From a virus: a stretch of 64,000 bases of DNA. The notes beneath the pieces are model-generated. The model saw only the letters and a program-made list of their open reading frames with translations, was not told the DNA's origin and did not search any database. The translations under genes and the position numbers were made by a program. Shown here piece by piece: positions 29,001-38,552 of the stretch. The stretch's first letter is position 1; each line of letters opens with the position of its first letter. Location of the stretch: the IMG/VR virus record IMGVR_UViG_3300050821_003663, positions 1 to 64,000 of that record; one strand, written 5' to 3'.

Positions 29001-29293
29001 GCTCGAAGATCTGCAAGAACCTCTTTGTGGAGTACAGCGCGAACGAGGAGATATTCTGCATGATCCAGTACGACGATCCCGCGTACGCACCGTTCACCTT
29101 CACACTGCCAGCGAGCGTAGGAGTCCGCAACCCGATGCGCGTACGGCTGCCGGCCGTAAACTTCCGTTGGCTGCGATTGACGATGATATCGAGCGACGAC
29201 TTCCAGATCTGGAACGAGAGCCGGTTCGAGGTGAAGCCCATCTGTAGCGGCAAGGGATACCAATTCTTCGGTTTGCTCAACGTAGAAACCTAG
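26030..29293 (+). CDS. Tail nozzle/stabilisation protein (P22 gp10/T7 gp12-like)
   Basis: 1087-aa beta-rich protein; LRVYRRGG, LYYSAKG, HGCVAP motifs. Confidence 0.7.
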   Translation: MADAAFRTYNLVNQSKGISARYVDDAVPESVYLNMDNVEEIEENALASRLGSTVINKGSFGLAFPLSGSVYSLNKLAGLNGIGWRYAGSGTNLYRRNVAFTGSYTVISTTMSGQPWQGVVYQPEISSMPYLFIADLAGMLKDNGSFTPPQNMGIKQPQYPVLAQAQAPDLIVLDDYESLSTDYTYTGISGGTVGPNVFTNTTSNIATPGIQEVNVADPSLIALYQYLSIGSEAVLVLFVTATGFIADFQFPHPTGSAVENQQLSFVVPPSTTATVSKSFGGTPISAWPTTLQLEDYISLFVFISDPTQVKSITLKFDCGDGTFETDYFYRVIAQGPLQSLLETQTDPTVAASDAIISEALDIYGSNPGGVTALNTGLNQWTHILLQLSDFAGAGRADFNDPSFNWQNVNGYQVEIVTNDTTAATVGLCALVLFGGAGPDSFAGVAYDYLFTFYNVVDGSESNPCMVMTNINPPLNTNWVVPRRQPVLLTLNHPILDPQTTHLRVYRRGGTLGDNYRRVDQIVPTGTQTLYTDLSSDVDIEVADTVSFVNDVPVTSTLPVPVNTTLNVALTATNQVQTITPASMANISVGQQVTIGNIAPVDLLDTSEIVIVLTKTGSNFTAFVQNTHEVGELISATAQYYLPVNIMAQAYDQMWFAGDKNNPAYLYYSAKGAPQNVGSDNYVAVTTPDDPITAIVQIKGNLYVSTRKFWWSIAPGTNAGQPPTVYPTAAKHGCVAPNGYVLTEEGVYYQAIDGIRFFGGGASVYLTQDQEFLFQDVGNTPIIEANPNSLNLTVGAYWNNMIFFSYVGTDGKRHRLIFHTVYKRWRNDDADAQSIFLEADTNVLVYGTSDGLVKIDRVGTWDEKNVAGTITPTAIPINLQWSYKDQGMPAETKIYQEFTLDCNTNGQDVTPVLMFNDGEFFETLDVINTTERTRFNLPLNNGQGFVAYKVSLVLTGNALQRIFLYQACIRALQLAKTRKSLDTYYLRFSDDGSKICKNLFVEYSANEEIFCMIQYDDPAYAPFTFTLPASVGVRNPMRVRLPAVNFRWLRLTMISSDDFQIWNESRFEVKPICSGKGYQFFGLLNVET

Positions 29294-29322
29294 TTGACAT
29301 GATTTAGCCTACGTGAGACTAT
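29294..29322 (+). promoter_or_regulatory. Promoter of tRNA cluster 1
   Basis: TTGACA-N17-GACTAT with AGCCTACGTG in spacer. Confidence 0.7.
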
Positions 29323-29328
29323 TCGGTC

Positions 29329-29403
29329 ATGCACACGTTACACAGCTCGTATTCACTGTTGTCCTGCCTCAGCGCAGGCGGCGGGGGGTATTGGCCTATG
29401 TAA
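29329..29403 (+). CDS. Attenuator leader peptide 1 MHTLHSSYSLLSCLSAGGGGYWPM
   Basis: ATG 6 nt after -10; codons 6-15 all Ser/Tyr/Leu/Cys, matching downstream tRNAs. Confidence 0.8.
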   Translation: MHTLHSSYSLLSCLSAGGGGYWPM

Positions 29404-29427
29404 CGAGATAGTCCAATCGAGTTCACT

Positions 29428-29458
29428 CCCGCCACCTAAGAATGGCGGGTATTTTTTT
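29428..29458 (+). terminator. Attenuator 1 terminator
   Basis: CCCGCCA-N8-TGGCGGG then TA and T7, ending 2 nt before first tRNA. Confidence 0.85.
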
Positions 29459-29460
29459 GT

Positions 29461-29539
29461 GCGGAGCTAGGAGAATGGCAGATCCGGCCGCCTCAAAAGC
29501 GGTGACTTCCTCTGGGTTCGAGTCCCAGGCTCCGCACCA
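29461..29539 (+). tRNA. tRNA-Leu(CAA), short variable loop
   Basis: Cloverleaf, loop CTCAAAA, ACCA end. Confidence 0.9.
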
Positions 29540-29542
29540 GAT

Positions 29543-29619
29543 GTGGCAGTAGCCAAGACGGAAAGGCGCCGGCCTGCAAAGCTGGTCATGCGGGAGTTCG
29601 ATTCTCCCCTGCCACTCCA
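29543..29619 (+). tRNA. tRNA-Cys(GCA)
   Basis: Loop CTGCAAA, TCCA end. Confidence 0.9.
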
Positions 29620-29633
29620 AGATCTTTGACAAT

Positions 29634-29709
29634 GCGCGTGTGGCCAAACGGCAAAGGCTCCGGATTTAGGCTCCGGGATGTGTGGGTTCGAATCCCACCT
29701 CGCGCACCA
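29634..29709 (+). tRNA. tRNA-Leu(TAG), short variable loop
   Basis: Loop TTTAGGC, ACCA end. Confidence 0.9.
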
Positions 29710-29718
29710 TATTTTCAC

Positions 29719-29808
29719 GGAGAGATGCGTGAACGGTAAAACGGCCGGTTTGCTAAACCGGCGGTCCTAGTGATAGGCCGCGTGGGGTCAGCACCCACTC
29801 TCTCCTCC
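29719..29808 (+). tRNA. tRNA-Ser(GCT)
   Basis: Loop TTGCTAA, long variable arm, atypical T-loop GTCAGCA, ends TCC. Confidence 0.8.
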
Positions 29809-29899
29809 GGAGGGCGCTGCTAGGCTGGTCTGGCAACTGGTCCTGAAAACCAGAGTGTACCCGCAAGGGGCAGGGGTTCGACTCCTCCGCTCTCCTCCA
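29809..29899 (+). tRNA. tRNA-Ser(TGA)
   Basis: Loop CCTGAAA (C33), long variable arm, TCCA end. Confidence 0.85.
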
Positions 29900-29904
29900 A
29901 GATT

Positions 29905-29993
29905 GCCGGTGATGTCCCGTGGGAAGTGGACGCCTGTCCGTAAAACAGAAGCGCCAAAGCGCATTGAGAGTTCGAACCTCTCCACCGGCACCA
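29905..29993 (+). tRNA. tRNA-Tyr(GTA)
   Basis: Loop CCGTAAA (C33), variable arm, ACCA end. Confidence 0.85.
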
Positions 29994-30037
29994 GAAATAA
30001 AGCTTGACCATGTAGGCTAATTGTGAAACCTTGTGAT

Positions 30038-30112
30038 GGCGGGGTAGAGCAGTGGCAGCTCGGGTGGCTCATAACCACCAGGTCGGAGGTTCAAGTCCTT
30101 CCCCCGCAACCA
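30038..30112 (+). tRNA. tRNA-Met(CAT), initiator-like
   Basis: Loop CTCATAA; unpaired G1xA72, A11-U24; only two of the three bottom G-C pairs in the anticodon stem. Confidence 0.8.
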
Positions 30113-30187
30113 TTCGATGTAACACGGGCGGAGGAAGCCAGGGGTAGTACACCCCGCCTCCGCCCAACTATTCTGGGGAGGCAACAC

Positions 30188-30403
30188 ATGGCATTCACCG
30201 AAGCGGAGATTGAAGATCTTTTCACGTACCACGCACCCAAGCCCGGACAGCAGGAGCGCTATCAGGCAATCCGCGAGTCCGCGAAGGGCTTGGCAAAGAC
30301 CATCGTCGCAAACACCCCAGCATCCGCCGATCAATCCGCAGCCATCCGCCATCTTCGTGAGGCAGTGATGACGGCCAACTCCTCAATCGCCTTGGAGAAG
30401 TAA
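30188..30403 (+). CDS. Acb2/Tad1-like helical-hairpin protein (putative immune-signal sponge)
   Basis: FTYHAPKPGQQERYQAIR...LREAVMTANSSIA pattern; GGGGAGG RBS. Confidence 0.7.
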   Translation: MAFTEAEIEDLFTYHAPKPGQQERYQAIRESAKGLAKTIVANTPASADQSAAIRHLREAVMTANSSIALEK

Positions 30404-30414
30404 AAGGAGGCCGC

Positions 30415-30963
30415 GTGAAGCTCATCCTGGTCATAGACAGAGCGCTTCTCTTGGCCTTCAACTGGACGGTTATTTTCTGTATTGAATGGTTCTCATGGAA
30501 TCGCCGGTGGATCGAGCGAGGGTGCATCATCGGATACGTGACGTTCAATGTGGTCCTTTCCGTCGACAACAAATTCGAGCACCACAGTTCCATGATGCTT
30601 TACACGCTACCCTTCACTCTGTTGATTGCCTCCGCGATGTGGGTTATCGAGGGGGACTCCGACACGAAGCGGATGGCAAGGATATGGAGCATGGAATATA
30701 TCGCCGCAAGGGTTGGCTGGTCAGGTATATGCGCAGTCTTTGTTTTCGCATTGCTAGTGGTGGCAGTGGGCGAGCATGGTAGGTATCTAGTCTCGGCGGC
30801 CGCGATGGCATGTCAGTTGACAAGCTACGTCACATACTTGTACCTCATGGCGTTACCGAGGGGCGGAGAGAAGGGCAAGCGCCGGAAGGTCGCGCTCGCG
30901 AAGCTGAAGGAGTGGTTCGGGTCACTGACGTGGCTACCTACTCCGGCAATGGAACCGCAGTAA
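30415..30963 (+). CDS. Multi-pass membrane protein
   Basis: AAGGAGG RBS; 4-5 hydrophobic segments. Confidence 0.7.
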   Translation: MKLILVIDRALLLAFNWTVIFCIEWFSWNRRWIERGCIIGYVTFNVVLSVDNKFEHHSSMMLYTLPFTLLIASAMWVIEGDSDTKRMARIWSMEYIAARVGWSGICAVFVFALLVVAVGEHGRYLVSAAAMACQLTSYVTYLYLMALPRGGEKGKRRKVALAKLKEWFGSLTWLPTPAMEPQ

Positions 30964-30975
30964 CAGGAGGCAACA

Positions 30976-31203
30976 ATGGAACCGCACCAGCAGCGAGTAG
31001 TAGACGAGCTCAAGGAGCTCGAAGTCAAGAGATCTAAACTCGGGAAGTTCATTCAGGAAAACAAAATGTTCAAGACGCTGCCGGCGGCTGAGAAGGAGAG
31101 GCTACGGCGCCAGTTCAGCATTATCATGCAGTACGAGGAAGTCCTCACCGAAAGAATCCGGGCATTCCCCGACAAAAAACTTGACACCAAGAAGAAGTCG
31201 TGA
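30976..31203 (+). CDS. crAss001_48-like helical protein (possible Sequestin-type sponge)
   Basis: MEPHQQRVVDE...KLGKFI...RQ..IMQYEEVLTERIRAF pattern; AGGAGG RBS. Confidence 0.65.
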   Translation: MEPHQQRVVDELKELEVKRSKLGKFIQENKMFKTLPAAEKERLRRQFSIIMQYEEVLTERIRAFPDKKLDTKKKS

Positions 31204-31209
31204 GACTCT
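31181..31209 (+). promoter_or_regulatory. Promoter of tRNA cluster 2
   Basis: TTGACA-N17-GACTCT; shares CGTGAGACT with the cluster 1 promoter. Confidence 0.55.
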
Positions 31210-31219
31210 CCAAAAAGAC

Positions 31220-31318
31220 ATGAAGCATACGCTCACAACGCGATTTACCCCAGCCGCCGCGCAACAGCCGCGTCAGGGTAATTGCGCATCGCATGTGGGC
31301 CGGAGCTTCAGTCGATAA
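31220..31318 (+). CDS. Attenuator leader peptide 2 MKHTLTTRFTPAAAQQPRQGNCASHVGRSFSR
   Basis: 18 of codons 3-21 specify amino acids of cluster 2 tRNAs. Confidence 0.8.
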   Translation: MKHTLTTRFTPAAAQQPRQGNCASHVGRSFSR

Positions 31319-31346
31319 ATTCTATAGACGACGGAAGTAACCAACG

Positions 31347-31376
31347 AAGGCCCACCGAATAACCGGTGGGCCTTTT
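31347..31376 (+). terminator. Attenuator 2 terminator
   Basis: AAGGCCCACCG-N6-CGGTGGGCCTTTT. Confidence 0.8.
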
Positions 31377-31389
31377 CGATGTAAATGAT

Positions 31390-31476
31390 TGGAGCGTGTC
31401 CGGAATGGCATCGGCCTCGGCTGTTAACCGAAGTGCCCGCAAGGGAGTGAAGGTTCGAGTCCTTCCGCTTCAGCCA
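31390..31476 (+). tRNA. tRNA-Asn(GTT) with long variable arm
   Basis: Loop CTGTTAA, GCCA end, extra CCC-GCAA-GGG arm. Confidence 0.8.
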
Positions 31477-31971
31477 AGTAAGTGTTTGTTTTGCGAAGTT
31501 GAGATAGTGAAAGGGAGAAAGTTCTGTTCGCACGGATGCGCGGCTAGATACAACAACAAGGCGTTCCCGAAGAGAAAACCCGAAGGCAAATGCGACGTAT
31601 GTGATGCCCCGGTAAAAAACTGCCTCAAGTATTGCGGTAAAAGCTGTAAGTCTAAGGCAGCTCACCAGCGGATGATGGAGACGATAAAGCAGACGAACGG
31701 TCAAAAAGTAGTTCGCTGGCGGCAACGGACCAAAGTTATAGCGGTAAAGTACAAGGGATCAAAGTGCTGTAGGTGTGGATACGACAGGTGCATAAAGGCC
31801 CTAGACTTCCACCACATTGATCCAGCGAAGAAGGATTTTTCAGTGAGCGGGGTGTCCCGCTCATGGGAGTCAATAAAGGCGGAACTGGATAAGTGCATAC
31901 TGGTTTGCGCAAATTGCCATCGAGAGCTTCACGATGGGATGTGGAACGTAGAAGCCCCGAGCGGGCAGTAG
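31405..31971 (+). CDS. HNH endonuclease with N-terminal Zn fingers (start uncertain, inside tRNA-Asn)
   Basis: CCRCGY...LDFHHIDP...CILVCANCHRELH. Confidence 0.85.
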   Translation: MASASAVNRSARKGVKVRVLPLQPSKCLFCEVEIVKGRKFCSHGCAARYNNKAFPKRKPEGKCDVCDAPVKNCLKYCGKSCKSKAAHQRMMETIKQTNGQKVVRWRQRTKVIAVKYKGSKCCRCGYDRCIKALDFHHIDPAKKDFSVSGVSRSWESIKAELDKCILVCANCHRELHDGMWNVEAPSGQ

Positions 31972-32008
31972 TTGGCAGATGTTTGACAATCGAAACGCAA
32001 GATAATGA

Positions 32009-32083
32009 TCGGGAGTATTTCAACAGGCAGAATCATCGGCTCTGAACCGATAGATGGGGGTTCGACTCCTCTCTCCCGATCCA
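32009..32083 (+). tRNA. tRNA-Gln(CTG)
   Basis: Loop CTCTGAA, U1-A72, TCCA end. Confidence 0.9.
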
Positions 32084-32093
32084 AAATTTTCGA

Positions 32094-32167
32094 TGCGTGA
32101 TCGGCTAACGGTAGGCCGGCGTCCTTTGAAGTCGTCTGTCTAGGTTCGAATCCTAGTCACGCAACCA
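32094..32167 (+). tRNA. tRNA-Gln(TTG)
   Basis: Loop CTTTGAA, U1-A72. Confidence 0.85.
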
Positions 32168-32168
32168 C

Positions 32169-32243
32169 GCGGGGTTCGTATAGTGGCTAGTACGGCGGCC
32201 TGCCAGGTCGCACACGAGAGTTCGAGTCTCTCACCCCGCTCCA
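32169..32243 (+). tRNA. tRNA-Gly(GCC)
   Basis: Loop CTGCCAG, GCG acceptor, TCCA end. Confidence 0.9.
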
Positions 32244-32250
32244 CAAGATT

Positions 32251-32354
32251 CTGTCGTACGCCGAAGATTCACTTTCCAAGGGAGGGCGGAAGCTGACTAG
32301 ATCGGATGCGAGAGGCATCTCGCCCTGACTTCAAAAGGCTCTGACGTACGACGG
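32251..32354 (+). ncRNA. Unassigned structured RNA in tRNA array
   Basis: 10-bp closing stem CTGTCGTACG/CGTACGACGG, inner GGGCG/CGCCC and GATGC/GCATC stems. Confidence 0.55.
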
Positions 32355-32365
32355 ATGCGCAATTC

Positions 32366-32438
32366 GCTGGCATCGTTCAACGGTAGGACGTCGGTTTCGT
32401 ACTCCGAAAATCCGGTTCAAATCCGGTTGCCAGCTCCA
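32366..32438 (+). tRNA. tRNA-Thr(CGT)
   Basis: Loop TTCGTAC, TCCA end. Confidence 0.85.
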
Positions 32439-32468
32439 CATGCGGTACATTCTAGGAAAGGAGGGTCT

Positions 32469-33008
32469 ATGCAGGATGCAACAAAGCAGGTTGTACTTCA
32501 ACTCAATTATTCATTCGAGCCGATGGCATTTTGTAATGTACGTCGTGCTGCGCGTCTTGTCGTAAAGGGCAAGGCTAGAATTATCGAACACGACGGTCGC
32601 GAACTGTCAGCCGGCATCATGTTTCCTGCGGTGATCCGCCTTATGGAGTACCGGCACGTACCTCACAAGATGCAGACGCTATCGCGAAAGAACATTCTGA
32701 TTCGCGACCGCAACCAGTGTCAGTACTGCGGAGAGAGGTTCCAGCCGAGCGAGCTAACCCTTGACCACGTTCACCCGAGATCTAAGGGCGGCTTGAGCAC
32801 CTGGGCGAACCTTGTAGCCTGCTGTGGCCCTTGCAACCGCAAGAAGGGCGACAAGACGGTCGAGGAAGCGGGTCTGATGTTGCTGCATCGTCCACGACCG
32901 ATGACGATCCACACGTCACGGTTCCTGATGCGGTCGATGGGCGTCGACGATCCAAGGTGGAAGAGGTATCTCTACACCGAGTCTGACAAAAAGTACACGC
33001 ACTCATAG
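32469..33008 (+). CDS. HNH endonuclease (McrA-like HNH family)
   Basis: AAAGGAGG RBS; RDRNQCQYCG, TLDHVHPRSKGG, WANLVACCGPCNRKKG. Confidence 0.92.
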   Translation: MQDATKQVVLQLNYSFEPMAFCNVRRAARLVVKGKARIIEHDGRELSAGIMFPAVIRLMEYRHVPHKMQTLSRKNILIRDRNQCQYCGERFQPSELTLDHVHPRSKGGLSTWANLVACCGPCNRKKGDKTVEEAGLMLLHRPRPMTIHTSRFLMRSMGVDDPRWKRYLYTESDKKYTHS

Positions 33009-33073
33009 CTCGAAGCGCGAGCATCCGCATGGTAGGCGGAAGGCGATGGGTTGGATTCCCTCTGAGTGCTCCA
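32999..33073 (+). tRNA. tRNA-Thr(GGT), atypical D/T loops
   Basis: GCACTCA/TGAGTGC acceptor, loop ATGGTAG, TCCA end; overlaps HNH stop. Confidence 0.7.
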
Positions 33074-33078
33074 ACAAT

Positions 33079-33149
33079 GCTGGTAGCCCGAGCGCGGAAC
33101 GCCCCTTGTAAGGCCGTTCTCTCAGGTTCGACTCCTGTTGCCAGCTCCA
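33079..33149 (+). tRNA. tRNA-Thr(TGT), reduced D arm
   Basis: Loop CTTGTAA, normal T loop, TCCA end. Confidence 0.7.
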
Positions 33150-33152
33150 AGT

Positions 33153-33231
33153 GTGACCGTAGCCAAGCCAGGTCTAAGGCGCGTGATTGTGGCTCACGTA
33201 TTCGCGGGTTCAAATCCCGTCGGTCACCCCA
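33153..33231 (+). tRNA. tRNA-His(GTG)
   Basis: Loop TTGTGGC, C73-CCA; T rather than G at -1. Confidence 0.88.
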
Positions 33232-33232
33232 A

Positions 33233-33332
33233 GTGGGGGGATTCGCGGAGGTCGCACGTTCGAATCGTGCCGAAGGCGTTCTAAACACCGCCATCGTAGC
33301 TCAGTGGCAGAGCGCCGCGATTATCCCCCTGC
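33233..33332 (+). ncRNA. Circularly permuted tRNA-like RNA without anticodon
   Basis: T arm precedes D arm, acceptor stem closed by a loop, anticodon stem runs into terminal G/C stem. Confidence 0.75.
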
Positions 33333-33347
33333 AACAATTTCAAATGT

Positions 33348-33421
33348 GGGCCGGTAGCATAACGGGAATGCGTCTCCCTTGCAAGGAGAAAGATGGGGTT
33401 CGACTCCCCCCGTGTCCACCA
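33348..33421 (+). tRNA. tRNA-Ala(TGC)
   Basis: Loop CTTGCAA, G3-U70, ACCA end; imperfect acceptor stem. Confidence 0.8.
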
Positions 33422-33431
33422 ATTTTCAGAA

Positions 33432-33507
33432 GTCCCCGTAGCTCAGACGGTAGAGCGCTGTCCTGAAAAGGCAGGCGTCGTGATCTCGAACATCACCGGG
33501 GGCACCA
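33432..33507 (+). tRNA. tRNA-Phe(GAA)
   Basis: Loop CTGAAAA; T-loop CTCGAAC. Confidence 0.88.
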
Positions 33508-33508
33508 C

Positions 33509-33582
33509 TCGGGTATAGCTGGAAGGTCAAGCCTATGATTTGGGATCATAAGACGTCGGTTCGATTCCGACTACCCGGACCA
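33509..33582 (+). tRNA. tRNA-Pro(TGG)
   Basis: Loop TTTGGGA, G72 A73. Confidence 0.88.
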
Positions 33583-33589
33583 TTTTTAT

Positions 33590-33666
33590 CCACCCGTCGT
33601 CCAATCGGATTAGGGCACGTGGCTACGAACCACGAGACGGAGGTTCGAATCCTTCCGGGTGGACCA
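33590..33666 (+). tRNA. tRNA-Arg(ACG)
   Basis: Loop CTACGAA, ACCA end. Confidence 0.9.
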
Positions 33667-33668
33667 CA

Positions 33669-33697
33669 TTGACAAAACCAGCCTACATGGCTAGGAT
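33669..33697 (+). promoter_or_regulatory. Promoter of Y RNA/Ro60 unit
   Basis: TTGACA-N17-TAGGAT with AGCCTACATG in spacer. Confidence 0.8.
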
Positions 33698-33717
33698 GAT
33701 CTTGCGTTTCGATATTG

Positions 33718-33820
33718 TTCTCCGTTAGTGAAAGTACTCGGTTACTTCATTGCCAATAGCCCCGCAAGGGACTTAATGATTCCCGAAAGGGATAACCGGA
33801 TGCGAATGTTCTACGGGGAA
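33718..33820 (+). ncRNA. Y RNA-like unit 1
   Basis: Closing stem TTCTCCGT/ACGGGGAA; TAGTGAA..CGGTTACTTC..CCG..GTTC core; two GNRA hairpins. Confidence 0.75.
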
Positions 33821-33825
33821 AAGTT

Positions 33826-33940
33826 TGAGACCTGGTGAAAGTTGACGGCTACTTCTTGGTTCGAATCCAAGCCGGAGGCAACTCTGGCTGCCACCAAAAA
33901 ACGGTACGGTGGCTACCCGTTGGCGCAGGTTCCGGTCTCA
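33826..33940 (+). ncRNA. Y RNA-like unit 2 (with T-loop arm)
   Basis: TGAGACC/GGTCTCA stem; TGGTGAA..CGGCTACTTC; TTGG-TTCGAAT-CCAA arm. Confidence 0.75.
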
Positions 33941-33950
33941 GAAAAGATAT

Positions 33951-34013
33951 GAGCCTTAGTGCCGTTACGGATACTTCATGCTAAGAAAACTCCGTAGCAA
34001 TCGTTCTAGGCTC
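33951..34013 (+). ncRNA. Y RNA-like unit 3 (minimal, 63 nt)
   Basis: GAGCCT/AGGCTC stem; TAGTG..CGGATACTTC..CTCCGTAG..GTTC. Confidence 0.7.
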
Positions 34014-34021
34014 TCGATGTT

Positions 34022-34156
34022 GTTCGGGATAGTGAAGTTTACGGATACTTCCCTTTGGCGGACGAGGTCGCAGGTTCGAGCCCTGCCATTCGCTTCGGCG
34101 GATGTAGCTCAGTGGTAGAGCGCGTAAATCTCCGTAGGCGCCTGTTCTTCCCGATC
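34022..34156 (+). ncRNA. yrlA: YrlA-type Y RNA (tRNA mimic)
   Basis: TCGGGA/TCCCGA stem, CGGATACTTC core, T arm then UUCG-closed acceptor then D arm TAGCTCAGTGGTAGAGC; adjacent to Ro60. Confidence 0.85.
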
Positions 34157-34163
34157 TAATACG

Positions 34164-34190
34164 AGAGCCAGACTTCGGTCTGGCTCTTTT
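34164..34190 (+). terminator. Intrinsic terminator between Y RNAs and Ro60
   Basis: AGAGCCAGAC-TTCG-GTCTGGCTCT-TTT. Confidence 0.85.
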
Positions 34191-34214
34191 GCTTTTACCA
34201 AGGAGGGTAAAACG

Positions 34215-35567
34215 ATGCGATCAAACGTTGCAGAAAAGAAGCCATTGCTCTACACCCACGAGGGCGCGGTAGCAGTGTACGCGAGCCCGGAGGACCAGCT
34301 TCGGCGCTCAGTGATGTCCAACATGCTCTTCGAGGATGAATTCTACGAAGACGGCCAGGAGATCTCGAAGCGAATCGAGTCGTCAGTCGCAGAGCTCATC
34401 AAGACTCGCGGCGGAGCGGATACGGTCGCAAACATCGCGTTCGAGGCCCGGACGAAGATGAAGCTGCGTCACGTGCCGTTGCTGTTGCTGGTATCGCTGA
34501 TTCGCGCCAACACGGCCGAGACTCGCGCTATCGTTGCCGGCGCCATCGCACACGTCATACAGCGGCCTGACGAGCTGGGCGAGCTTGTGTCGTTGTTCTG
34601 GAAGCAGAGTGGCGGACGGAAGATGCTGCCGAACCAGATGAAGAAGGGTCTCGCGCTCGCGCTGGACAAGTTCAACGAGTACTCGCTGGCGAAGTACGAC
34701 ATGAGTTCGGCCGCAGTGAAGCTGCGTGACGTGCTCTTCTTGAGCCACGCGAAGCCAGCCGGAGTTGAGAAGGCGGATCTCTACAAGCGCATCGCAGCGA
34801 ACGAGCTGAAGACGCCTGACACCTGGGAGGTTGCTCTCTCGGGCGGAGCGGACAAGAAGGAGACGTTCACTCGTCTTCTGACCGAGGGCAACCTTGGAGC
34901 GCTTGCGCTTCTCCGTAACCTGCGAAACATGACGGAGGCCGGCGTGGAGACGGAAGTCATCCGTGAGGGTCTTGGAAAGATGAAGACCGAGCGGGTACTA
35001 CCTTTCCGGTTCATCACGGCAGCTCGCTACGCGCCATCCTTCGAGCCTCAGCTTGAAGAGGCGATGTTCCGGTGTCTCGCTTCGTTCACGAAGTTTCCCG
35101 GCAAGACGACGCTGTGCATCGACACGTCAGCTTCGATGAGCGCAAAGGTATCCGGCAAGTCGGAGATCAGCCGGCGGGATGCAGCGGCCGCGCTGGCGAT
35201 GATGCTGCGTGAGATCTGCGGTGACTGCGAGGTTATCGCGTTCGGAACGCAAGCGGCTGTTGTTCGGCCACGCCGGGGATTCGCGTTGAACGACGAGATC
35301 GGAAGCGGTCGGTTCGGTCACGGAACCAACATTGGCGAAGCAACGGCGCTGGCAGCAACGAAGGGCTACGACCGCATCATCGTCATCACCGATGAGCAGT
35401 CGGCTACGCCAACGAAGGCTCCGGAGTACGGAACCAAGGGCTACTTCATCAACGTGGCCAGCAACAAGAACGGTATCGGCTATGGCGCCTGGACCCACAT
35501 CGACGGATGGAGCGAAGCAGTCATCGACTACATCGCTCGCTTCGAGGGCCTTGAAGGCGAAGAGTAG
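34215..35567 (+). CDS. rsr: Ro60/TROVE-domain RNA-binding protein
   Basis: THEGAVA, LRHVP, QRPDE, FNEYSLAKY, LRDVLFLSHAKP, ALLRNLRNM, LPFRF; vWA DTSASM, HGTN, ITDEQ, DGWSE. Confidence 0.95.
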   Translation: MRSNVAEKKPLLYTHEGAVAVYASPEDQLRRSVMSNMLFEDEFYEDGQEISKRIESSVAELIKTRGGADTVANIAFEARTKMKLRHVPLLLLVSLIRANTAETRAIVAGAIAHVIQRPDELGELVSLFWKQSGGRKMLPNQMKKGLALALDKFNEYSLAKYDMSSAAVKLRDVLFLSHAKPAGVEKADLYKRIAANELKTPDTWEVALSGGADKKETFTRLLTEGNLGALALLRNLRNMTEAGVETEVIREGLGKMKTERVLPFRFITAARYAPSFEPQLEEAMFRCLASFTKFPGKTTLCIDTSASMSAKVSGKSEISRRDAAAALAMMLREICGDCEVIAFGTQAAVVRPRRGFALNDEIGSGRFGHGTNIGEATALAATKGYDRIIVITDEQSATPTKAPEYGTKGYFINVASNKNGIGYGAWTHIDGWSEAVIDYIARFEGLEGEE

Positions 35568-35568
35568 C

Positions 35569-35603
35569 TTGACACGGTAGTATGCGAGTGCTACCGTGTC
35601 TTT
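35569..35603 (+). promoter_or_regulatory. Overlapping Ro60 terminator hairpin and promoter of tRNA cluster 3
   Basis: GACACGGTAG/CTACCGTGTC hairpin plus TTT; TTGACA-N17-TACCGT with TG extension. Confidence 0.6.
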
Positions 35604-35637
35604 GAAGTCCGATCACTAGGGAGAATCTTTGTAGGCG

Positions 35638-35718
35638 ATGAGACAGACCTTCAAACACGTCGTCATAACCATCACCATTGAAAAGTGGGGGCGGGGAGAT
35701 ATGTGTTTGAGGGTCTGA
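35638..35718 (+). CDS. Attenuator leader peptide 3 MRQTFKHVVITITIEKWGRGDMCLRV
   Basis: 13 of codons 8-22 match cluster 3 tRNAs; 1:2, 2:3, 3:4 pairings visible. Confidence 0.82.
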   Translation: MRQTFKHVVITITIEKWGRGDMCLRV

Positions 35719-35745
35719 TCCATACCATACGTGGTATCACCAGAC

Positions 35746-35768
35746 CCCCTCCAAGTGAGGGGATTTTT
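35746..35768 (+). terminator. Attenuator 3 terminator
   Basis: CCCCTC-CAAGT-GAGGGG-ATTTTT. Confidence 0.8.
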
Positions 35769-35799
35769 ATTGGTCTTTGAAAATTGTAAATATATTTAC

Positions 35800-35874
35800 G
35801 GGAGATTCGTACAGCGGCCAGTACGGCAGATTCCAAACCTGCTTACGAGGGTTCGAGTCCTTCATCTCCCGCCA
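35800..35874 (+). tRNA. tRNA-Trp(CCA)
   Basis: Loop TTCCAAA, GCCA end. Confidence 0.9.
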
Positions 35875-35875
35875 T

Positions 35876-35951
35876 CCCGGTATAGCTCAGTGGTAGAGCG
35901 TCACCCTCATAAGGTGGGGGCCGATTGGTTCGAATCCATCTGCCGGGACCA
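35876..35951 (+). tRNA. tRNA with CAT anticodon (elongator Met or Ile2)
   Basis: Loop CTCATAA, paired 1:72, ACCA end. Confidence 0.85.
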
Positions 35952-35953
35952 GT

Positions 35954-36030
35954 GCGCAGCTAACTCAACTGGCTAGAGTATTCGCCTCTTAAGCGAAAGG
36001 TTCTGGGTTCGATCCCCAGGCTGCGCACCA
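35954..36030 (+). tRNA. tRNA-Lys(CTT)
   Basis: Loop CTCTTAA. Confidence 0.92.
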
Positions 36031-36039
36031 ACAAGTTTC

Positions 36040-36115
36040 GGGAGTGTAACTCAAGAGGAAGAGGACCAGCCTTTTAAGCTGGACGATGAGATTTCGAGTA
36101 TCTCCGCTCCCACCA
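36040..36115 (+). tRNA. tRNA-Lys(TTT)
   Basis: Loop CTTTTAA. Confidence 0.9.
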
Positions 36116-36116
36116 T

Positions 36117-36192
36117 GCACCTGTAGCTCAATTGGATAGAGCGCCGGGCTTCTAACCCGGTGATATGGGTTCGAGTCCCATCGGGCGCTCCA
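36117..36192 (+). tRNA. tRNA-Arg(TCT)
   Basis: Loop CTTCTAA. Confidence 0.9.
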
Positions 36193-36193
36193 C

Positions 36194-36271
36194 GCGGTAA
36201 TCGTCTAGTCTGGCCCAGGACTCCTGCTTTTCACGCAGACAACACGGGTTCGAATCCCGTTTACCGCCCCA
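36194..36271 (+). tRNA. tRNA-Glu(TTC)
   Basis: Loop TTTTCAC. Confidence 0.9.
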
Positions 36272-36276
36272 CATTC

Positions 36277-36350
36277 GCCGTCATCCGCCAAGGGTAAGCG
36301 ACATGATTCTCACTCATGCAATCGGAGCTCGACTCTCCGTGACGGCACCA
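36277..36350 (+). tRNA. tRNA-Glu(CTC)
   Basis: Loop TTCTCAC; T-loop CTCGACT. Confidence 0.85.
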
Positions 36351-36355
36351 CATTC

Positions 36356-36431
36356 GCTCTCCTCGTCCAATCGGATAGGGCACCGGTTTCCTAAACCGTG
36401 AATGGCAGTTCAAATCTGCCGGAGAGCACCA
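36356..36431 (+). tRNA. tRNA-Arg(CCT)
   Basis: Loop TTCCTAA. Confidence 0.9.
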
Positions 36432-36435
36432 TTTT

Positions 36436-36512
36436 GCGCGAGTAGCTCAGTTGGACAGAGCGCTGTCCTCCGAAGGCAGAGGCCGCAGGTTCGACTCCTG
36501 CCTCGCGCACCA
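36436..36512 (+). tRNA. tRNA-Arg(CCG)
   Basis: Loop CTCCGAA. Confidence 0.92.
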
Positions 36513-36517
36513 GTTTT

Positions 36518-36593
36518 GCGGCAGTAGCTTAGTGGTCAGAGTCCCTGATTGTCGATCAGGTTCGCGGGAGTTCGAATCTCCTCTGCCGCGCCA
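36518..36593 (+). tRNA. tRNA-Asp(GTC)
   Basis: Loop TTGTCGA, GCCA end. Confidence 0.9.
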
Positions 36594-36597
36594 CATT

Positions 36598-36678
36598 GCA
36601 AGGTTGGCCGAGTGGTCGATGGCGCCTGTCTTACAAACAGGTTTATCGCCGGGGGTTCGAATCCCTCACCTTGCACCA
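36598..36678 (+). tRNA. tRNA-Val(TAC), atypical body
   Basis: Loop CTTACAA; 3-bp D stem GCC/GGC and 9-nt variable loop. Confidence 0.8.
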
Positions 36679-36682
36679 GTTT

Positions 36683-36759
36683 GGACGTAGAGCTCGGATG
36701 GCATGAGCATTCGCCTGATAAGCGAAAGGCCAGTGGTTCAAGTCCACTTACGTCCACCA
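36683..36759 (+). tRNA. tRNA-Ile(GAT)
   Basis: Loop CTGATAA. Confidence 0.9.
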
Positions 36760-36763
36760 ATTC

Positions 36764-36838
36764 GCGGGGTTAGCTGAGTGGAAAAGCGCTGGCCTTCCAA
36801 GCCGGAGATCGTGAGTTCAATCCTCACACCCCGCTCCA
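36764..36838 (+). tRNA. tRNA-Gly(TCC)
   Basis: Loop CTTCCAA, TCCA end. Confidence 0.9.
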
Positions 36839-36895
36839 CAAAATAATTCAGCCTACACAGGAAACATGCTACTATCGCGAAAAGGTAGCATCGAA

Positions 36896-37675
36896 ATGCC
36901 CCTGAGACACATTAGGAACTTCTTCAAGAGGCCCACAGCGAAGGCATACTGGTGGACGCAGATCGCCAATTTTGGCGATGCGCTCGCACCGCTGCTTCTC
37001 GGCCGGTTCGCCGACCTGGACAACGTCCAATACGCTCCGGTTGGCGAGGCGAACATTGCTTCCGTGGGCTCAATCCTGGAACACATCCCCGCCGGTTGGA
37101 GCGGGTACATCGTCGGCTCAGGCATTCTACGCGAAGAGTCAAAGCTAAAGTTTGACCCCCAGCAAGCCAAGATCCTAGCGCTTCGCGGCCCACTGTCGGC
37201 TCGCGGAATAAAGGGCAGCTTCGCGATAGGAGATCCCGGACTACTCGCCAACGAGCTCGTCGGGATCCAGGAGAAGCAGTGGGACTTGGGAATCGTTCCG
37301 CACTGGCTGGATGACCAGTTAGAAAAAAGGTTCCGCAAGCTGGTTCCAACGAAGTTCACCCTCAAAGTCATCAGCCCGCACAACCACCCCCTCAAGGTCA
37401 TCAGGGAGATAGGCGCTTGCAAGAGAATCGTTACATCATCCCTTCATGGAATGATTGTGGCGGACTCCATCGGCGGCATCCCCCGAAGGGTAGAGGTGTG
37501 CGAAAAGATGAAGAGGGAGGGGGGAACGTTCAAATTCCACGACTACAGCGCTTCGATAAAGACGCCACTTCAGATCGGGAAGATGACCGAGCCGAACTAT
37601 AACCAGGTTGACGACACGAAGAACGAAATCTACGACGCCTACAGAGAGCTCGGCGGGCTATATGGGAAAAATTGA
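36896..37675 (+). CDS. Polysaccharide pyruvyltransferase (ExoV-like)
   Basis: NFGDAL, VGSIL, ALRGPLS, GDPGLL, GIVPH, TSSLHG, FKFHDY. Confidence 0.88.
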   Translation: MPLRHIRNFFKRPTAKAYWWTQIANFGDALAPLLLGRFADLDNVQYAPVGEANIASVGSILEHIPAGWSGYIVGSGILREESKLKFDPQQAKILALRGPLSARGIKGSFAIGDPGLLANELVGIQEKQWDLGIVPHWLDDQLEKRFRKLVPTKFTLKVISPHNHPLKVIREIGACKRIVTSSLHGMIVADSIGGIPRRVEVCEKMKREGGTFKFHDYSASIKTPLQIGKMTEPNYNQVDDTKNEIYDAYRELGGLYGKN

Positions 37676-38552
37676 TCTAGGCGGAGTTGTCCGAAGGGCG
37701 TGGTTCACTCTGCGTAGGCTAGTCAGAGCTCGCGGCCACGGCATCAGCATCCTTGTGCCGCTGTACTTCGATGGCGCCGGCGGCCAGCGAGAGAGAAACT
37801 GGAACTGGCTGAGGGAATACTGGAGGGTAAATCTTCCCGGCGCAGAAGTGGTGATCGGAAGAGATGCGGAAGCCATTCGGAGTCAGACGCCATTTTCAAA
37901 GTCCGCAGCTATAAACGATGCGGCGAGCAGGGCGCTAGGCGATGTCTTTGTGGTCGTCGACGCCGACATCTACATCCCCGCCCAAACAATCGTTGATTGC
38001 GCCAAGGAGATTCGCCTTGCCGTAAGTAAGGGTAGGAAGCTCTGGTTTGTCCCGTACCGCAAGATCTTTCGACTCACGGAAGAAGCTTCGCGCAAGTTGC
38101 TGGAATCCAGCCCAAAGCGTCCGGTCACACCTACCGATGGGATACAGGCCATGACCGTCGGACACTGGTGGGGAGCGATGATCCAGATGATGCCCCGCGA
38201 GGCGTTCGAGACGGTTGGCGGCTGGGATCCACGGTTCAAGGGGTGGGGAGGAGAAGATCGAGCCGCAATGGTGGCGATGGACACTCTCTACGGACCACAC
38301 AAGACCTTTCGAGGCGAGGTGCTCCATATTTGGCACCCCGTCATTACCAGACCTTCGGCCGATAATGATCGGGTGAAGAGTCGTATGTGGGCGAATCAGG
38401 ATCCAAGCCAGTACAACAACGTTCTCTCGGGAAGGTACTTTGCGTCTCAGTGGAACGTGAAGCGGATGAGGCGACTCGTGGATGAGTTCAAGAACGAGGG
38501 GACCGTCTCCAGCCCGGACAGCTCACCGCCAACCTCCACCATCTCGCCCTAG
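37662..38552 (+). CDS. GT-A glycosyltransferase (GT2/GT7C-like)
   Basis: FSKSAAIN, VDADI, GGWDPRFKGWGGED, HIWH. Confidence 0.88.
   Translation: MGKIDLGGVVRRAWFTLRRLVRARGHGISILVPLYFDGAGGQRERNWNWLREYWRVNLPGAEVVIGRDAEAIRSQTPFSKSAAINDAASRALGDVFVVVDADIYIPAQTIVDCAKEIRLAVSKGRKLWFVPYRKIFRLTEEASRKLLESSPKRPVTPTDGIQAMTVGHWWGAMIQMMPREAFETVGGWDPRFKGWGGEDRAAMVAMDTLYGPHKTFRGEVLHIWHPVITRPSADNDRVKSRMWANQDPSQYNNVLSGRYFASQWNVKRMRRLVDEFKNEGTVSSPDSSPPTSTISP

What the first reader, a model, noticed from the sequence alone, without database searches (positions are those of the whole stretch)
29294..36838. Codon-matched leader-peptide attenuators gate three phage tRNA operons: a putative sensor of host tRNA depletion
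Seen: the 31 elongator tRNAs form three clusters. Each has the layout TTGACA promoter, 24-32 codon ORF, alternative pairing, terminator, tRNAs. Each leader is built from codons read by its own cluster: cluster 1 Ser/Leu/Tyr/Cys; cluster 2 His/Thr/Arg/Phe/Pro/Ala/Gln/Gly/Asn; cluster 3 Val/Ile/Glu/Lys/Trp/Gly/Arg/Asp/Met. The match resolves isoacceptors: the sensing stretch of leader 2 uses CGA/CGT and GGT (Arg-ACG, Gly-GCC in cluster 2), while leader 3 uses AGA/CGG/AGG and GGG/GGA (Arg-TCT/CCG/CCT, Gly-TCC in cluster 3). Established: ribosome-stalling attenuation controls trp/his/thr/ilv operons and pheST, and phage tRNAs can offset tRNA-cleaving defences such as PrrC and PARIS. Inference: loss of any matching host tRNA stalls the ribosome, the antiterminator forms, and only the cluster holding the replacement tRNA is transcribed. 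Together the three leaders would monitor almost the whole codon table. I know of no description of this for tRNA arrays.
Basis: partly seen in the sequence, partly recalled or inferred. Interest (0 to 1): 0.97.

Follow-up and report, generated by a model that had tools for sequence, protein, structure and literature searches.

The report
Leader-peptide attenuators gating phage tRNA clusters
An uncultured 104-kb phage puts a tiny translated "test" gene and a switchable transcription stop in front of each of its three tRNA gene blocks. Each test gene is written in the codons that its own block's tRNAs read, so the phage probably makes a block only when ribosomes read those codons slowly. I found no paper describing such control of tRNA genes.

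Summary
Three units of promoter, 24-32-codon ORF, intrinsic terminator and tRNA block lie at 29294-36838.

- **Codon match in the window.** 29 of the 31 called tRNAs have a cognate codon in their own leader. No tRNA-label permutation (0 of 20,000) and no dinucleotide shuffle (0 of 5,000) reached this. The other two reading frames give 17.
- **Relatives.** Five related uncultured phages share a tail-like protein at 47-57% identity. They keep homologous leaders, terminators and tRNA order. Their leader peptide sequences drift, but coverage stays at 31-33 of 33-34 tRNAs.
- **Covariation.** Asp and Glu tRNAs sit in block 3 only in this phage, and only its leader 3 has Asp and Glu codons.
- **Co-occurrence.** Relatives without tRNA arrays lack the leaders.
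- **RNA switch.** The end of each ORF can pair with the terminator's 5' arm, and in leader 1 the two co-vary.

Best reading (0.75): these are ribosome-stalling transcription attenuators that report the supply of the block's own tRNAs. This is on-demand or feedback control. A role against host tRNA-cleaving defences is plausible but untested, and nothing here is experimental.

This scan has noted the same design in at least six other phages. Those are unchecked AI notes. I found no paper on it.

The parts
29294..29322 (+). Promoter of unit 1: -35 TTGACA, 17-nt spacer ending in TGn (extended -10), -10 hexamer at 29317-29322. The ATG follows 6 nt later, so the transcript is probably leaderless.
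   Evidence: Sequence. TTGAC, the GTG of the extended -10 and the ATG are invariant in six phages. Not called by the simple sigma-70 scan.
29329..29403 (+). Leader ORF 1 (24 codons). Codons 6-15 are a run of Ser, Tyr, Leu and Cys codons. Every tRNA of block 1 has a cognate codon here.
   Evidence: Homologous ORFs in L068, L069, L070, L078 and L084.
29345..29398 (+). Segments 1 (29345-29368) and 2 (29375-29398) of attenuator 1. The antiterminator core at 29379-29388 is complementary to the terminator 5' arm.
   Evidence: MFE fold. Duplex of -18.3 kcal/mol against -10.7 +/- 2.2 for shuffles. Matched partners beat mismatched ones, with 2 of 720 label permutations as good.
29428..29458 (+). Intrinsic terminator 1 (stem 29428-29449, U-tract to 29458), 11 nt before the first tRNA.
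29461..29993 (+). tRNA block 1: Leu (two), Cys, Ser (two), Tyr.
30004..30112 (+). Promoter-like site (TTGACC, 17 nt, TGn) and an initiator-like tRNA-Met at 30038-30112. Probably a separate transcription start inside block 1.
   Evidence: Sequence. Relatives without arrays keep this tRNA with a promoter-like site of its own.
31181..31209 (+). Promoter of unit 2: -35 TTGACA, extended -10 TGn, -10 hexamer at 31204-31209. It overlaps the stop codon of the upstream 75-codon gene.
   Evidence: TTGACA and the ATG are invariant in four phages.
31220..31318 (+). Leader ORF 2 (32 codons). At the amino-acid level, 18 of codons 3-21 encode amino acids carried by block 2's tRNAs. All 11 called tRNAs of block 2 have a cognate codon, or 12 of 12 with the probable Thr-UGU.
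   Evidence: Homologues in L068, L069 and L078.
31231..31302 (+). Segments 1 (about 31231-31246) and 2 (about 31283-31302) of attenuator 2. The core at 31294-31300 is complementary to the terminator 5' arm.
   Evidence: -16.3 against -10.8 +/- 1.9 kcal/mol, p 0.006.
31349..31376 (+). Intrinsic terminator 2.
   Evidence: Seen in the sequence.
31390..33666 (+). tRNA block 2: Asn, Gln (two), Gly-GCC, Thr (two, plus a probable third at 33079-33150), His, Ala, Phe, Pro, Arg-ACG. It is interrupted by a Cys-rich ORF (about 31510-31971), an HNH endonuclease ORF (32469-33008) and a YrlA-like RNA (33230-33343).
35569..35597 (+). Promoter-like site of unit 3 (TTGACA, extended -10 TGn, -10 hexamer at 35592-97). 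It overlaps a hairpin that directly follows the Ro60-like gene. This is the least certain of the three promoters.
   Evidence: Relatives have different -35 and -10 sequences here.
35638..35718 (+). Leader ORF 3 (26 codons). 11 of 13 tRNAs of block 3 have a cognate codon under strict wobble. It includes one Glu and one Asp codon that the relatives' leader 3 lacks.
35641..35717 (+). Segments 1 (35641-35662) and 2 (35696-35717) of attenuator 3, forming a long 1:2 helix. The segment 2 core at 35711-35717 is complementary to 35741-35747.
   Evidence: The helix sequence is conserved in L068, L069 and L078.
35742..35771 (+). Intrinsic terminator 3 (core stem 35746-35762, U-tract after it).
35800..36838 (+). 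tRNA block 3: Trp, Met (or Ile2), Lys (two), Arg (three: TCT, CCT, CCG), Glu (two), Asp, Val, Ile, Gly-TCC.

Best explanation
Each of the three units is a ribosome-mediated (leader-peptide) transcription attenuator that controls a block of tRNA genes.

Transcription starts at a sigma-70-type promoter. In units 1 and 2 the ATG lies 6-10 nt after the -10 hexamer, so the short ORF is probably translated from a leaderless or nearly leaderless RNA.

The ORF works as a catalogue. It holds one or a few codons for nearly every tRNA encoded behind it, resolved to the isoacceptor.

- If all those codons are read quickly, the ribosome reaches the end of the ORF and covers segment 2. The terminator (3:4) then forms 7-33 nt before the first tRNA, and the block is not transcribed.
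- If any one of the codons is read slowly because its charged tRNA is scarce, the ribosome, and any ribosomes queued behind it, hold segment 1. Segment 2 pairs with the terminator's 5' arm (2:3), and RNA polymerase runs into the tRNA genes.
- Untranslated read-through from upstream folds into 1:2 plus 3:4 and stops, so the unit also insulates the block.

The result is on-demand expression with negative feedback, one channel per block. The three channels together cover all 20 amino acids.

Shown here by computation only: the parts, their statistics, their conservation and the alternative pairings. Inferred: promoter activity, translation, and stall-dependent read-through.
For: - Architecture. 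It occurs three times in the window and in all 14 leaders of six phages. The stop codon lies 21-47 nt before a terminator, and the terminator lies 7-33 nt before the first tRNA.
- Codon match in the window. 43 of 79 codons are read by the leader's own block. 0 of 200,000 tRNA-label permutations and 2 of 20,000 dinucleotide shuffles reach this, and the ORF frame is the best of three for every leader.
- Coverage of own-block tRNAs. 29/31 in the window, 33/34 in L068, 33/34 in L069, 31/33 in L078. In each phage 0 of 20,000 permutations reach the observed value. Without the start codon coverage is 29, 32, 32 and 31, which 0 of 5,000 shuffles reach, and the other frames give 11-17.
- Conservation of content, not sequence. 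Leader peptides differ strongly between phages whose tail-like protein is 47-57% identical, yet they keep the catalogue.
- Covariation with block content. Asp and two Glu tRNAs are in block 3 only in the window, and only the window's leader 3 has Asp and Glu codons. In L068, L069 and L084 these tRNAs follow block 1, and leader 1 there has Asp and Glu codons.
- Presence and absence. All six arrays fetched in full behind the tail-like gene have leader 1. Four relatives without an array (L067, L071, L073, L095) have none. One truncated contig, L085, shows a Leu tRNA there and no leader.
- Antiterminator. The duplex between the ORF's 3' part and the terminator's 5' arm is stronger than in shuffles (mean z -2.3 over 14 leaders). 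For leader 1 it co-varies with the terminator (matched -19.3, mismatched -14.7 kcal/mol, 2 of 720 permutations as good).
- Fold model with a stalled, queued ribosome. Stalls in the first 60-85% of each ORF leave the terminator arm already paired. With the ribosome in the last codons the arm is mostly free (pairing probability about 0 to 0.5 at the stop codon, higher at a few late codons in L084 leader 1 and L069 leader 1). Own-block codons are enriched in the sensing zone, 132/197 against 32/75, Fisher p 0.0003. The sequences are related, so this is indicative only.
- Invariant columns. In the leader 1 alignment TTGAC, the extended -10 and the ATG are invariant.
Against: - No experiment and no RNA data.
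- Most sensed codons occur once or twice, not in tandem runs as in his, phe or leu leaders. A single stall may give a weak response unless the tRNA is nearly absent.
- With the whole terminator present, an equilibrium fold predicts loss of the terminator only for the window's leader 1 and a few others. The switch must therefore be kinetic, as in trp, and these tools cannot test that.
- The -10 hexamers are weak and were not called by the simple scan.
- Leaders 1 and 2 have no Shine-Dalgarno sequence and depend on leaderless initiation in an unknown host.
- The promoter of unit 3 overlaps a hairpin and is uncertain.
- Covariation is incomplete. L070 and L078 carry Asp (and, in L078, Glu) tRNAs after block 1 but have no Asp or Glu codon in leader 1. 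The window's leader 3 has three ACC codons, while its Thr-GGU gene lies in block 2.
- Some own-block codons lie in the distal zone, where a stall should favour termination.
- A more distant phage with a similar tRNA order (L003) shows no leaders.
Confidence: 0.75

Rival explanations
1. The leaders are translated and regulatory, but the output or the logic differs. Ribosome position might control processing or stability of the tRNA precursor (access of RNase P or RNase E). It might act through Rho. Or efficient translation might promote expression rather than prevent it.
For: The equilibrium fold with the full terminator mostly keeps the terminator, whatever the ribosome position. Terminators lie only 7-33 nt from the first tRNA, so leader structure could affect 5' processing. 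Some own-block codons lie where a stall should favour termination.
Against: All 14 units have a canonical hairpin plus U-tract and a competing pairing placed as in classical attenuators. Turning the block on when tRNAs are already abundant would make no regulatory sense for tRNA genes.
Confidence: 0.1
2. The terminators are plain 3' ends or insulators for upstream genes, and the promoters simply restart transcription. The small ORFs do not control read-through. The codon match has another cause, or none.
For: Each unit follows the stop codon of a protein gene. The unit 3 promoter overlaps a hairpin. No expression data exist.
Against: A promoter placed upstream of a terminator, with no gene between them, makes no sense as a plain restart. 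The frame-specific match at isoacceptor level is not reached by permutations or shuffles in four phages. The ATG and the ORF are conserved. Leaders occur only where arrays occur. The terminator lies 135-180 nt after the upstream stop codon, not next to it.
Confidence: 0.06
3. A leader RNA senses tRNA directly, like a T-box, or binds a protein, without translation.
For: The leaders are structured RNAs of 130-200 nt before a terminator. T-box elements are the known case of tRNA-responsive antitermination. A dispersed palindrome sits in leader 1 of the relatives and could bind a protein.
Against: The region has no match to T-box or to any leader or riboswitch family at E <= 1. The signal is specific to one reading frame and to codons, with an invariant ATG. 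One specifier could not account for 6-13 different tRNAs.
Confidence: 0.04
4. A chance set of short ORFs, picked after the fact.
For: Each region holds two or three candidate ORFs.
Against: 0 of 200,000 permutations. 0 of 5,000 shuffles in each of four phages. Orthologous ORFs exist in five relatives. An unbiased genome-wide scan returns only these units.
Confidence: 0.01

Closest known systems
Enterobacterial leader-peptide attenuators of amino-acid operons (trpL, hisL, pheL, leuL, and the multivalent thr and ilvGMEDA leaders)
   Same: A promoter-proximal short ORF enriched in codons related to the regulated product. Four RNA segments with mutually exclusive 1:2, 2:3 and 3:4 pairings. An intrinsic terminator before the first regulated gene. 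Segment 2 lies at the end of the ORF. The multivalent leaders already sense two or three amino acids.
   Different: The regulated genes are tRNAs, not biosynthetic enzymes. The product that closes the feedback loop is therefore the sensed molecule itself. Codons form a one-each catalogue of 6-13 isoacceptors instead of tandem runs. The element is phage-encoded and has probably leaderless starts. No sequence or model similarity was found: no Rfam leader family matched at E <= 1.
pheST (pheM leader) attenuation of an aminoacyl-tRNA synthetase operon in E. coli
   Same: A gene of the translation apparatus is controlled by ribosome stalling at cognate codons in a leader peptide.
   Different: One amino acid and a protein product, in a bacterial chromosome.
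T-box riboswitches
   Same: Antitermination that responds to tRNA status.
   Different: A T-box binds one uncharged tRNA directly through a specifier codon and the T-box motif, without a ribosome. No T-box match was found here, and the signal here is a translated frame.
Phage tRNA arrays as a supplement or counter-defence (T4 and T5 tRNAs against PrrC, PARIS/AriB and retron tRNases)
   Same: A large phage tRNA set that could replace host tRNAs. PMC12409363 states that some viruses encode their own tRNAs to counter tRNA cleavage by host immune systems.
   Different: Those works concern what the tRNAs do. None of the papers found describes leader-peptide control of their transcription.
The same design noted by this scan in other phages (e1-5368892, e1-5806396, e1-5766206, e1-5759923, e1-5402871, e1-5408211) and in an Asgard archaeon (e1-5621009)
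   Same: A short ORF written in the amino acids or codons of the downstream tRNA block, followed by a terminator.
   Different: These are other phage lineages (Bacteroidota giant phage, crAss-like, lake and peat phages). No look-alike stretch of this window is in the index. They are AI notes that I did not check.

Membership tests
Ribosome-mediated (leader-peptide) transcription attenuators | A promoter directly upstream, so that the leader is the 5' end of the transcript | tested here: inconclusive
   TTGACA, a 17-nt spacer and TGn plus a hexamer occur at all three units. The -35, the extended -10 and the ATG are invariant in relatives for leader 1. The -10 hexamers are weak and the simple scan did not call them. 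No transcription start data exist.
Ribosome-mediated (leader-peptide) transcription attenuators | A short ORF with a start codon, conserved as an ORF | tested here: met
   ATG ORFs of 19-32 codons occur in all 14 leaders of six phages. The ATG is invariant in the alignments.
Ribosome-mediated (leader-peptide) transcription attenuators | Enrichment of codons cognate to the regulated product, in frame | tested here: met
   Coverage is 29/31 to 33/34. No permutation or shuffle reaches it. The other frames give 11-17.
Ribosome-mediated (leader-peptide) transcription attenuators | An intrinsic terminator between the ORF and the first regulated gene | tested here: met
   14 of 14 leaders. Two of the three in the window were also called by the independent scan.
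Ribosome-mediated (leader-peptide) transcription attenuators | An antiterminator (2:3) that excludes the terminator and overlaps the 3' part of the ORF, plus a 1:2 pairing that sequesters it | tested here: met
   The case is strong for leader 1 (covariation, 2 of 720), moderate for leader 2, and rests on conserved sequence for leader 3.
Ribosome-mediated (leader-peptide) transcription attenuators | Read-through depends on translation and on the supply of the cognate charged tRNA | not testable with these tools
   This needs reporter, Term-seq, ribosome profiling or in vitro coupled assays.
Rfam leader families (Trp, His, Thr, Leu and other leaders) | A match to the family's covariance model | tested here: not met
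   cmscan of 28000-38500 at E <= 1 lists tRNAs, YrlA-like matches and weak chance matches only.
T-box riboswitch | A match to the T-box model (specifier loop and T-box motif) | tested here: not met
   No T-box match at E <= 1.

The most novel reading that the evidence does not exclude
The three leaders form a phage-encoded surveillance system for the host tRNA pool. When a host anticodon nuclease or another tRNA-depleting defence removes a tRNA, or when the infection itself degrades host tRNAs, the single matching codon in one leader stalls the ribosome. Only the block that holds the replacement tRNA is then switched on. Single-copy codons would suit this use, because they respond only to near-total loss of a tRNA. 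An Acb2/Tad1-like sponge gene and a Ro60/Y-RNA module are interleaved with the tRNA blocks. That fits a counter-defence and RNA-repair island.
Probability: 0.3. Interest if true: 0.95.

Novelty: new variant of a known kind. Interest (0 to 1): 0.88.

Why it matters
How phages regulate their tRNA arrays is, as far as I could find, undescribed. tRNA genes are generally treated as unregulated cargo or as growth-rate-controlled genes.

Here the best-known bacterial sensing device, the leader-peptide attenuator, appears to be turned onto tRNA genes themselves. The sensed molecule and the product are then the same, and a whole codon table is monitored in three channels at isoacceptor resolution.

If confirmed, three things would follow:
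- It would show that tRNA supply can be controlled by direct feedback.
- It would give a testable account of when phage tRNAs are made, which bears on the debate between codon-usage compensation and counter-defence.
- It would offer compact natural sensors of individual tRNA levels for synthetic biology.

The design recurs in unrelated phages according to this scan's earlier, unchecked notes, so it may be general.

Tried and rejected
- **The look-up of encoding contigs was closed.** The many closer homologues of the tail-like protein found (up to 67% identity) could not be fetched.
- **Phage-collection searches.** Megablast of the region against 50,697 phage records found no match. The tail-like protein finds only Tunturiibacter phages at 24% identity.
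- **Locus scans.** A single-protein locus scan found nothing. An alignment query was needed.
- **Phages found through the Ro60-like protein.** L003 has a similar tRNA order but no leaders in its gaps. An automatic scan of the other tRNA-rich loci gave no convincing leader. A 39-codon ORF before a 35-tRNA array in L057 is uninformative, because that array covers nearly all codons.
- **Pattern scan for leader 3 homologues in IMG/VR.** It returned 59 stretches, of which only the two contigs already known were real.
- **RNAalifold on the MAFFT alignment of leader 1.** It was uninformative because the terminators are not in register. I replaced it with per-sequence duplex tests.
- **Equilibrium fold with the whole terminator and one ribosome footprint.** It predicts a switch only in a few leaders. 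With one footprint and the terminator's 3' arm not yet made, leader 3 looked wrong, because segment 1 re-pairs behind the ribosome. Masking everything behind the lead ribosome (queued ribosomes) gives the expected pattern. This is a model assumption, not a result.
- **Composition as the sole cause was rejected.** Shuffles that keep dinucleotides explain part of the match (30 of 43 codons) but not the rest, and they do not explain the frame specificity.

Full report
**What is there.** The window is the first 64 kb of a complete 103,677-bp IMG/VR virus record with direct terminal repeats.
- ARAGORN finds 28 tRNAs at default settings and 31 at a relaxed threshold. Rfam supports the three extra ones.
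- No tRNA lies outside 29461-36838 in the whole genome.
- A 32nd tRNA-like gene at 33079-33150 aligns with Thr-UGU genes that occupy the same place in relatives.

The tRNAs fall into three blocks. Each block is preceded by the same series of parts, read directly from the sequence:
- the stop codon of a protein gene;
- TTGACA, then a 17-nt spacer ending in TGn, then a weak -10 hexamer;
- an ATG ORF of 24, 32 or 26 codons;
- 23-30 nt of spacer;
- a G+C-rich hairpin with a U-tract;
- the first tRNA, 11-33 nt later.

In units 1 and 2 the ATG is 6 and 10 nt after the -10 hexamer. These RNAs would therefore be leaderless or nearly so.

**Is the codon match more than chance?** Under strict wobble rules, 43 of the 79 leader codons (start codons excluded) are read by a tRNA of the leader's own block.
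- Random reassignment of the 31 tRNAs to blocks of the same sizes gives 24.6 +/- 4.1 and never reaches 43 in 200,000 trials.
- The blocks differ in base composition, so I also shuffled each leader while keeping its dinucleotides. This gives 30.1 +/- 3.3, with 2 of 20,000 reaching 43. Composition explains part of the match, not all of it.
- The ORF frame gives the best match of the three frames for every leader.
- The sharper measure is coverage. 29 of 31 tRNAs have a cognate codon in their own leader: all 7 in block 1, all 11 in block 2, and 11 of 13 in block 3. The other two frames give 17. No permutation or shuffle reaches 29.
- The isoacceptor split claimed for Arg and Gly between leaders 2 and 3 is correct.
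- An unbiased scan of both strands of the genome for TTGAC(A/G/C), a 12-45-codon ATG ORF and a terminator returns only leaders 1 and 2.

**Relatives.** The 1,087-residue tail-like protein that ends at 29293 has many homologues in metagenomes. I therefore used an alignment of the homologues to scan IMG/VR and JGI metagenomes.
- Five distinct phages (L068, L069, L070, L078, L084; 47-57% protein identity) carry a tRNA array directly after this gene, in nearly the same gene order as the window.
- All five have a homologous leader 1 and terminator.
- The three contigs that are long enough also have leaders 2 and 3.
- The leader peptides differ strongly from the window's, and in leader 2 the order of residues is partly shuffled. 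Coverage of own-block tRNAs nevertheless stays at 33/34, 33/34 and 31/33. In each phage 0 of 20,000 permutations reach these values. Without the start codon coverage is 32, 32 and 31, which 0 of 5,000 shuffles reach, and the other frames give 11-14.
- In L068, 20 codons cover all 13 tRNAs of block 1, including four Ser and three Leu isoacceptors.
- Four relatives that lack an array after the tail-like gene lack any such leader. L085, a truncated contig, shows a Leu tRNA there but no leader.

**Covariation.** The clearest rearrangement concerns Asp and the two Glu tRNAs. They lie in block 3 in the window, but after block 1 in the relatives.
- Only the window's leader 3 has a Glu and an Asp codon.
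- The window's leader 1 has none, while leader 1 of L068, L069 and L084 has two or three.
- L070 and L078 are exceptions, with no Asp or Glu codon in leader 1.
- In L069 and L078, Thr-GGU lies in block 3 and leader 3 has three ACC codons. The window keeps those codons although its Thr-GGU gene now lies in block 2, next to an HNH endonuclease gene.

The match is therefore maintained by selection but is not perfect.

**RNA switch.** All 14 leaders have a terminator 21-47 nt after the stop codon.
- In each leader, the best partner of the terminator's 5' arm lies in the last part of the ORF or over the stop codon. The duplex is stronger than in dinucleotide shuffles (mean z -2.3; p <= 0.012 for five of the six leader 1 sequences).
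- The terminator sequence differs between phages, and in leader 1 the partner changes with it. Matched pairs average -19.3 kcal/mol and mismatched pairs -14.7, with 2 of 720 label permutations as good.
- Leader 2 shows a weaker trend. Leader 3 uses conserved sequence, so no covariation can be seen there.
- The MFE folds show segment 2 held by segment 1 inside the ORF.
- In a fold model the terminator's 3' arm is not yet made and everything up to 14 nt past the A-site is masked. Stalls in the first 60-85% of each ORF then leave the terminator arm already paired. With the ribosome at the stop codon the pairing probability falls to about 0 to 0.5.
- Own-block codons are enriched in that sensing zone: 132/197 against 32/75, p 0.0003. 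The sequences are related, so this is indicative only.
- With the full terminator at equilibrium, the terminator wins in most leaders. As in trp, the choice would have to be kinetic.

**Mechanism.** Shown by computation: the parts, the in-frame codon catalogue, its conservation, and the competing pairings. Inferred: that the promoters fire, that the ORFs are translated, and that a stall gives read-through.

On this reading each unit reports the total supply, host plus phage, of the charged tRNAs of its block. It transcribes the block when any one of them is limiting, and it shuts off again when supply is restored. It also stops untranslated read-through from upstream. Because most codons occur once or twice, the device should respond mainly to severe shortage.

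**Purpose.** Nothing here separates three possible uses: plain feedback, adaptation to hosts with other tRNA pools, and a response to tRNA-cleaving defences or infection-induced tRNA loss.

The neighbourhood is suggestive. A 71-residue ORF just after the initiator-like tRNA matches the Acb2/Tad1 hairpin domain (E 2e-12). A Ro60-like gene with YrlA-like RNAs separates blocks 2 and 3.

**Comparison with what is known.** The layout is that of enterobacterial leader-peptide attenuators, closest to the multivalent thr and ilv leaders and to the pheST leader. There is no match to any Rfam leader, T-box or riboswitch model.

Four full-text searches found no paper that describes leader-peptide control of tRNA genes in phages or cells. 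That library lacks most subscription journals.

This scan's own earlier notes report the same design in at least six other, unrelated phages and in one archaeon. None of them resembles this window in sequence. They are unchecked AI notes and I did not use them as evidence.

**Verdict.** It is a new variant of a known kind of regulator, applied to a new class of genes with a new catalogue design. Experimental proof is entirely lacking.

Noticed in passing
window 30188-30403 (+): A 71-residue ORF directly after the initiator-like tRNA-Met matches the Acb2/Tad1 hairpin domain (PF24729, E 2e-12). This is the family of phage sponges for CBASS and Thoeris signalling nucleotides. It lies inside the tRNA region, downstream of attenuator 1 and of the promoter-like site at 30004.
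   Followed up: partly
window 33669-35567 (+): A strong sigma-70-like promoter (33669-33697, 10 of 12 matches) is followed by YrlA-like RNA matches. One is at 34062-34127, and another lies inside block 2 at 33230-33343. Both are below the Rfam gathering score. A Ro60-like gene with TROVE and Ro60 vWA domains follows at 34215-35567. 65 IMG/VR contigs encode relatives of this protein, many of them next to tRNA arrays.
   Followed up: partly
window 8653, 25485, 41886, 51666, 62134; genome 85114, 95038, 101159; L068 13425, L069 13908, L070 9306, L078 14334, L084 9250: The palindrome TCCAAAWWTTGGA, mostly extended to GTCCAAA..TTTGGAC, occurs eight times in this genome against none expected. It is dispersed in the relatives too. 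In all five relatives one copy sits immediately after the stop codon of leader 1, between the ORF and the terminator. The window's leader 1 lacks it. It could be the site of a DNA-binding protein, or a spacer hairpin of the attenuator.
   Followed up: partly
window 33079-33150 (+): A probable 32nd tRNA (Thr, anticodon UGU) with an unusual D-arm. ARAGORN and Rfam missed it at the thresholds used. It aligns with Thr-UGU genes at the same place in L068 and L078.
   Followed up: yes
L068 20345-20424; L069 17962-18122; L078 20024-20265: The Arg tRNAs (TCT, CCT, CCG) of the relatives' block 3 have an odd shape: a short D region and a long extra arm. ARAGORN misses or miscalls them. I read their anticodons from the loop by eye.
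   Followed up: partly
window 31510-31971 and 32469-33008 (+): Two ORFs interrupt tRNA block 2. One is a Cys-rich protein with no Pfam match. The other is an HNH endonuclease (PF14279/PF01844, E 1e-15). Relatives have HNH-type ORFs at similar but not identical places. This may explain how tRNA genes move between blocks.
   Followed up: no
L069 16018-16102; L078 15975-16057: A conserved 83-nt non-tRNA spacer between Gly-GCC and Thr-CGU holds the palindrome followed by TTGACA. This may be an internal promoter inside block 2 of the relatives.
   Followed up: no
L057 1464-1583: In an unrelated 348-kb phage contig, a 39-codon ORF and a terminator-like hairpin precede a 35-tRNA array. 26 of the 35 tRNAs have a cognate codon in it. 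With an array that reads almost every codon, this is not informative.
   Followed up: no
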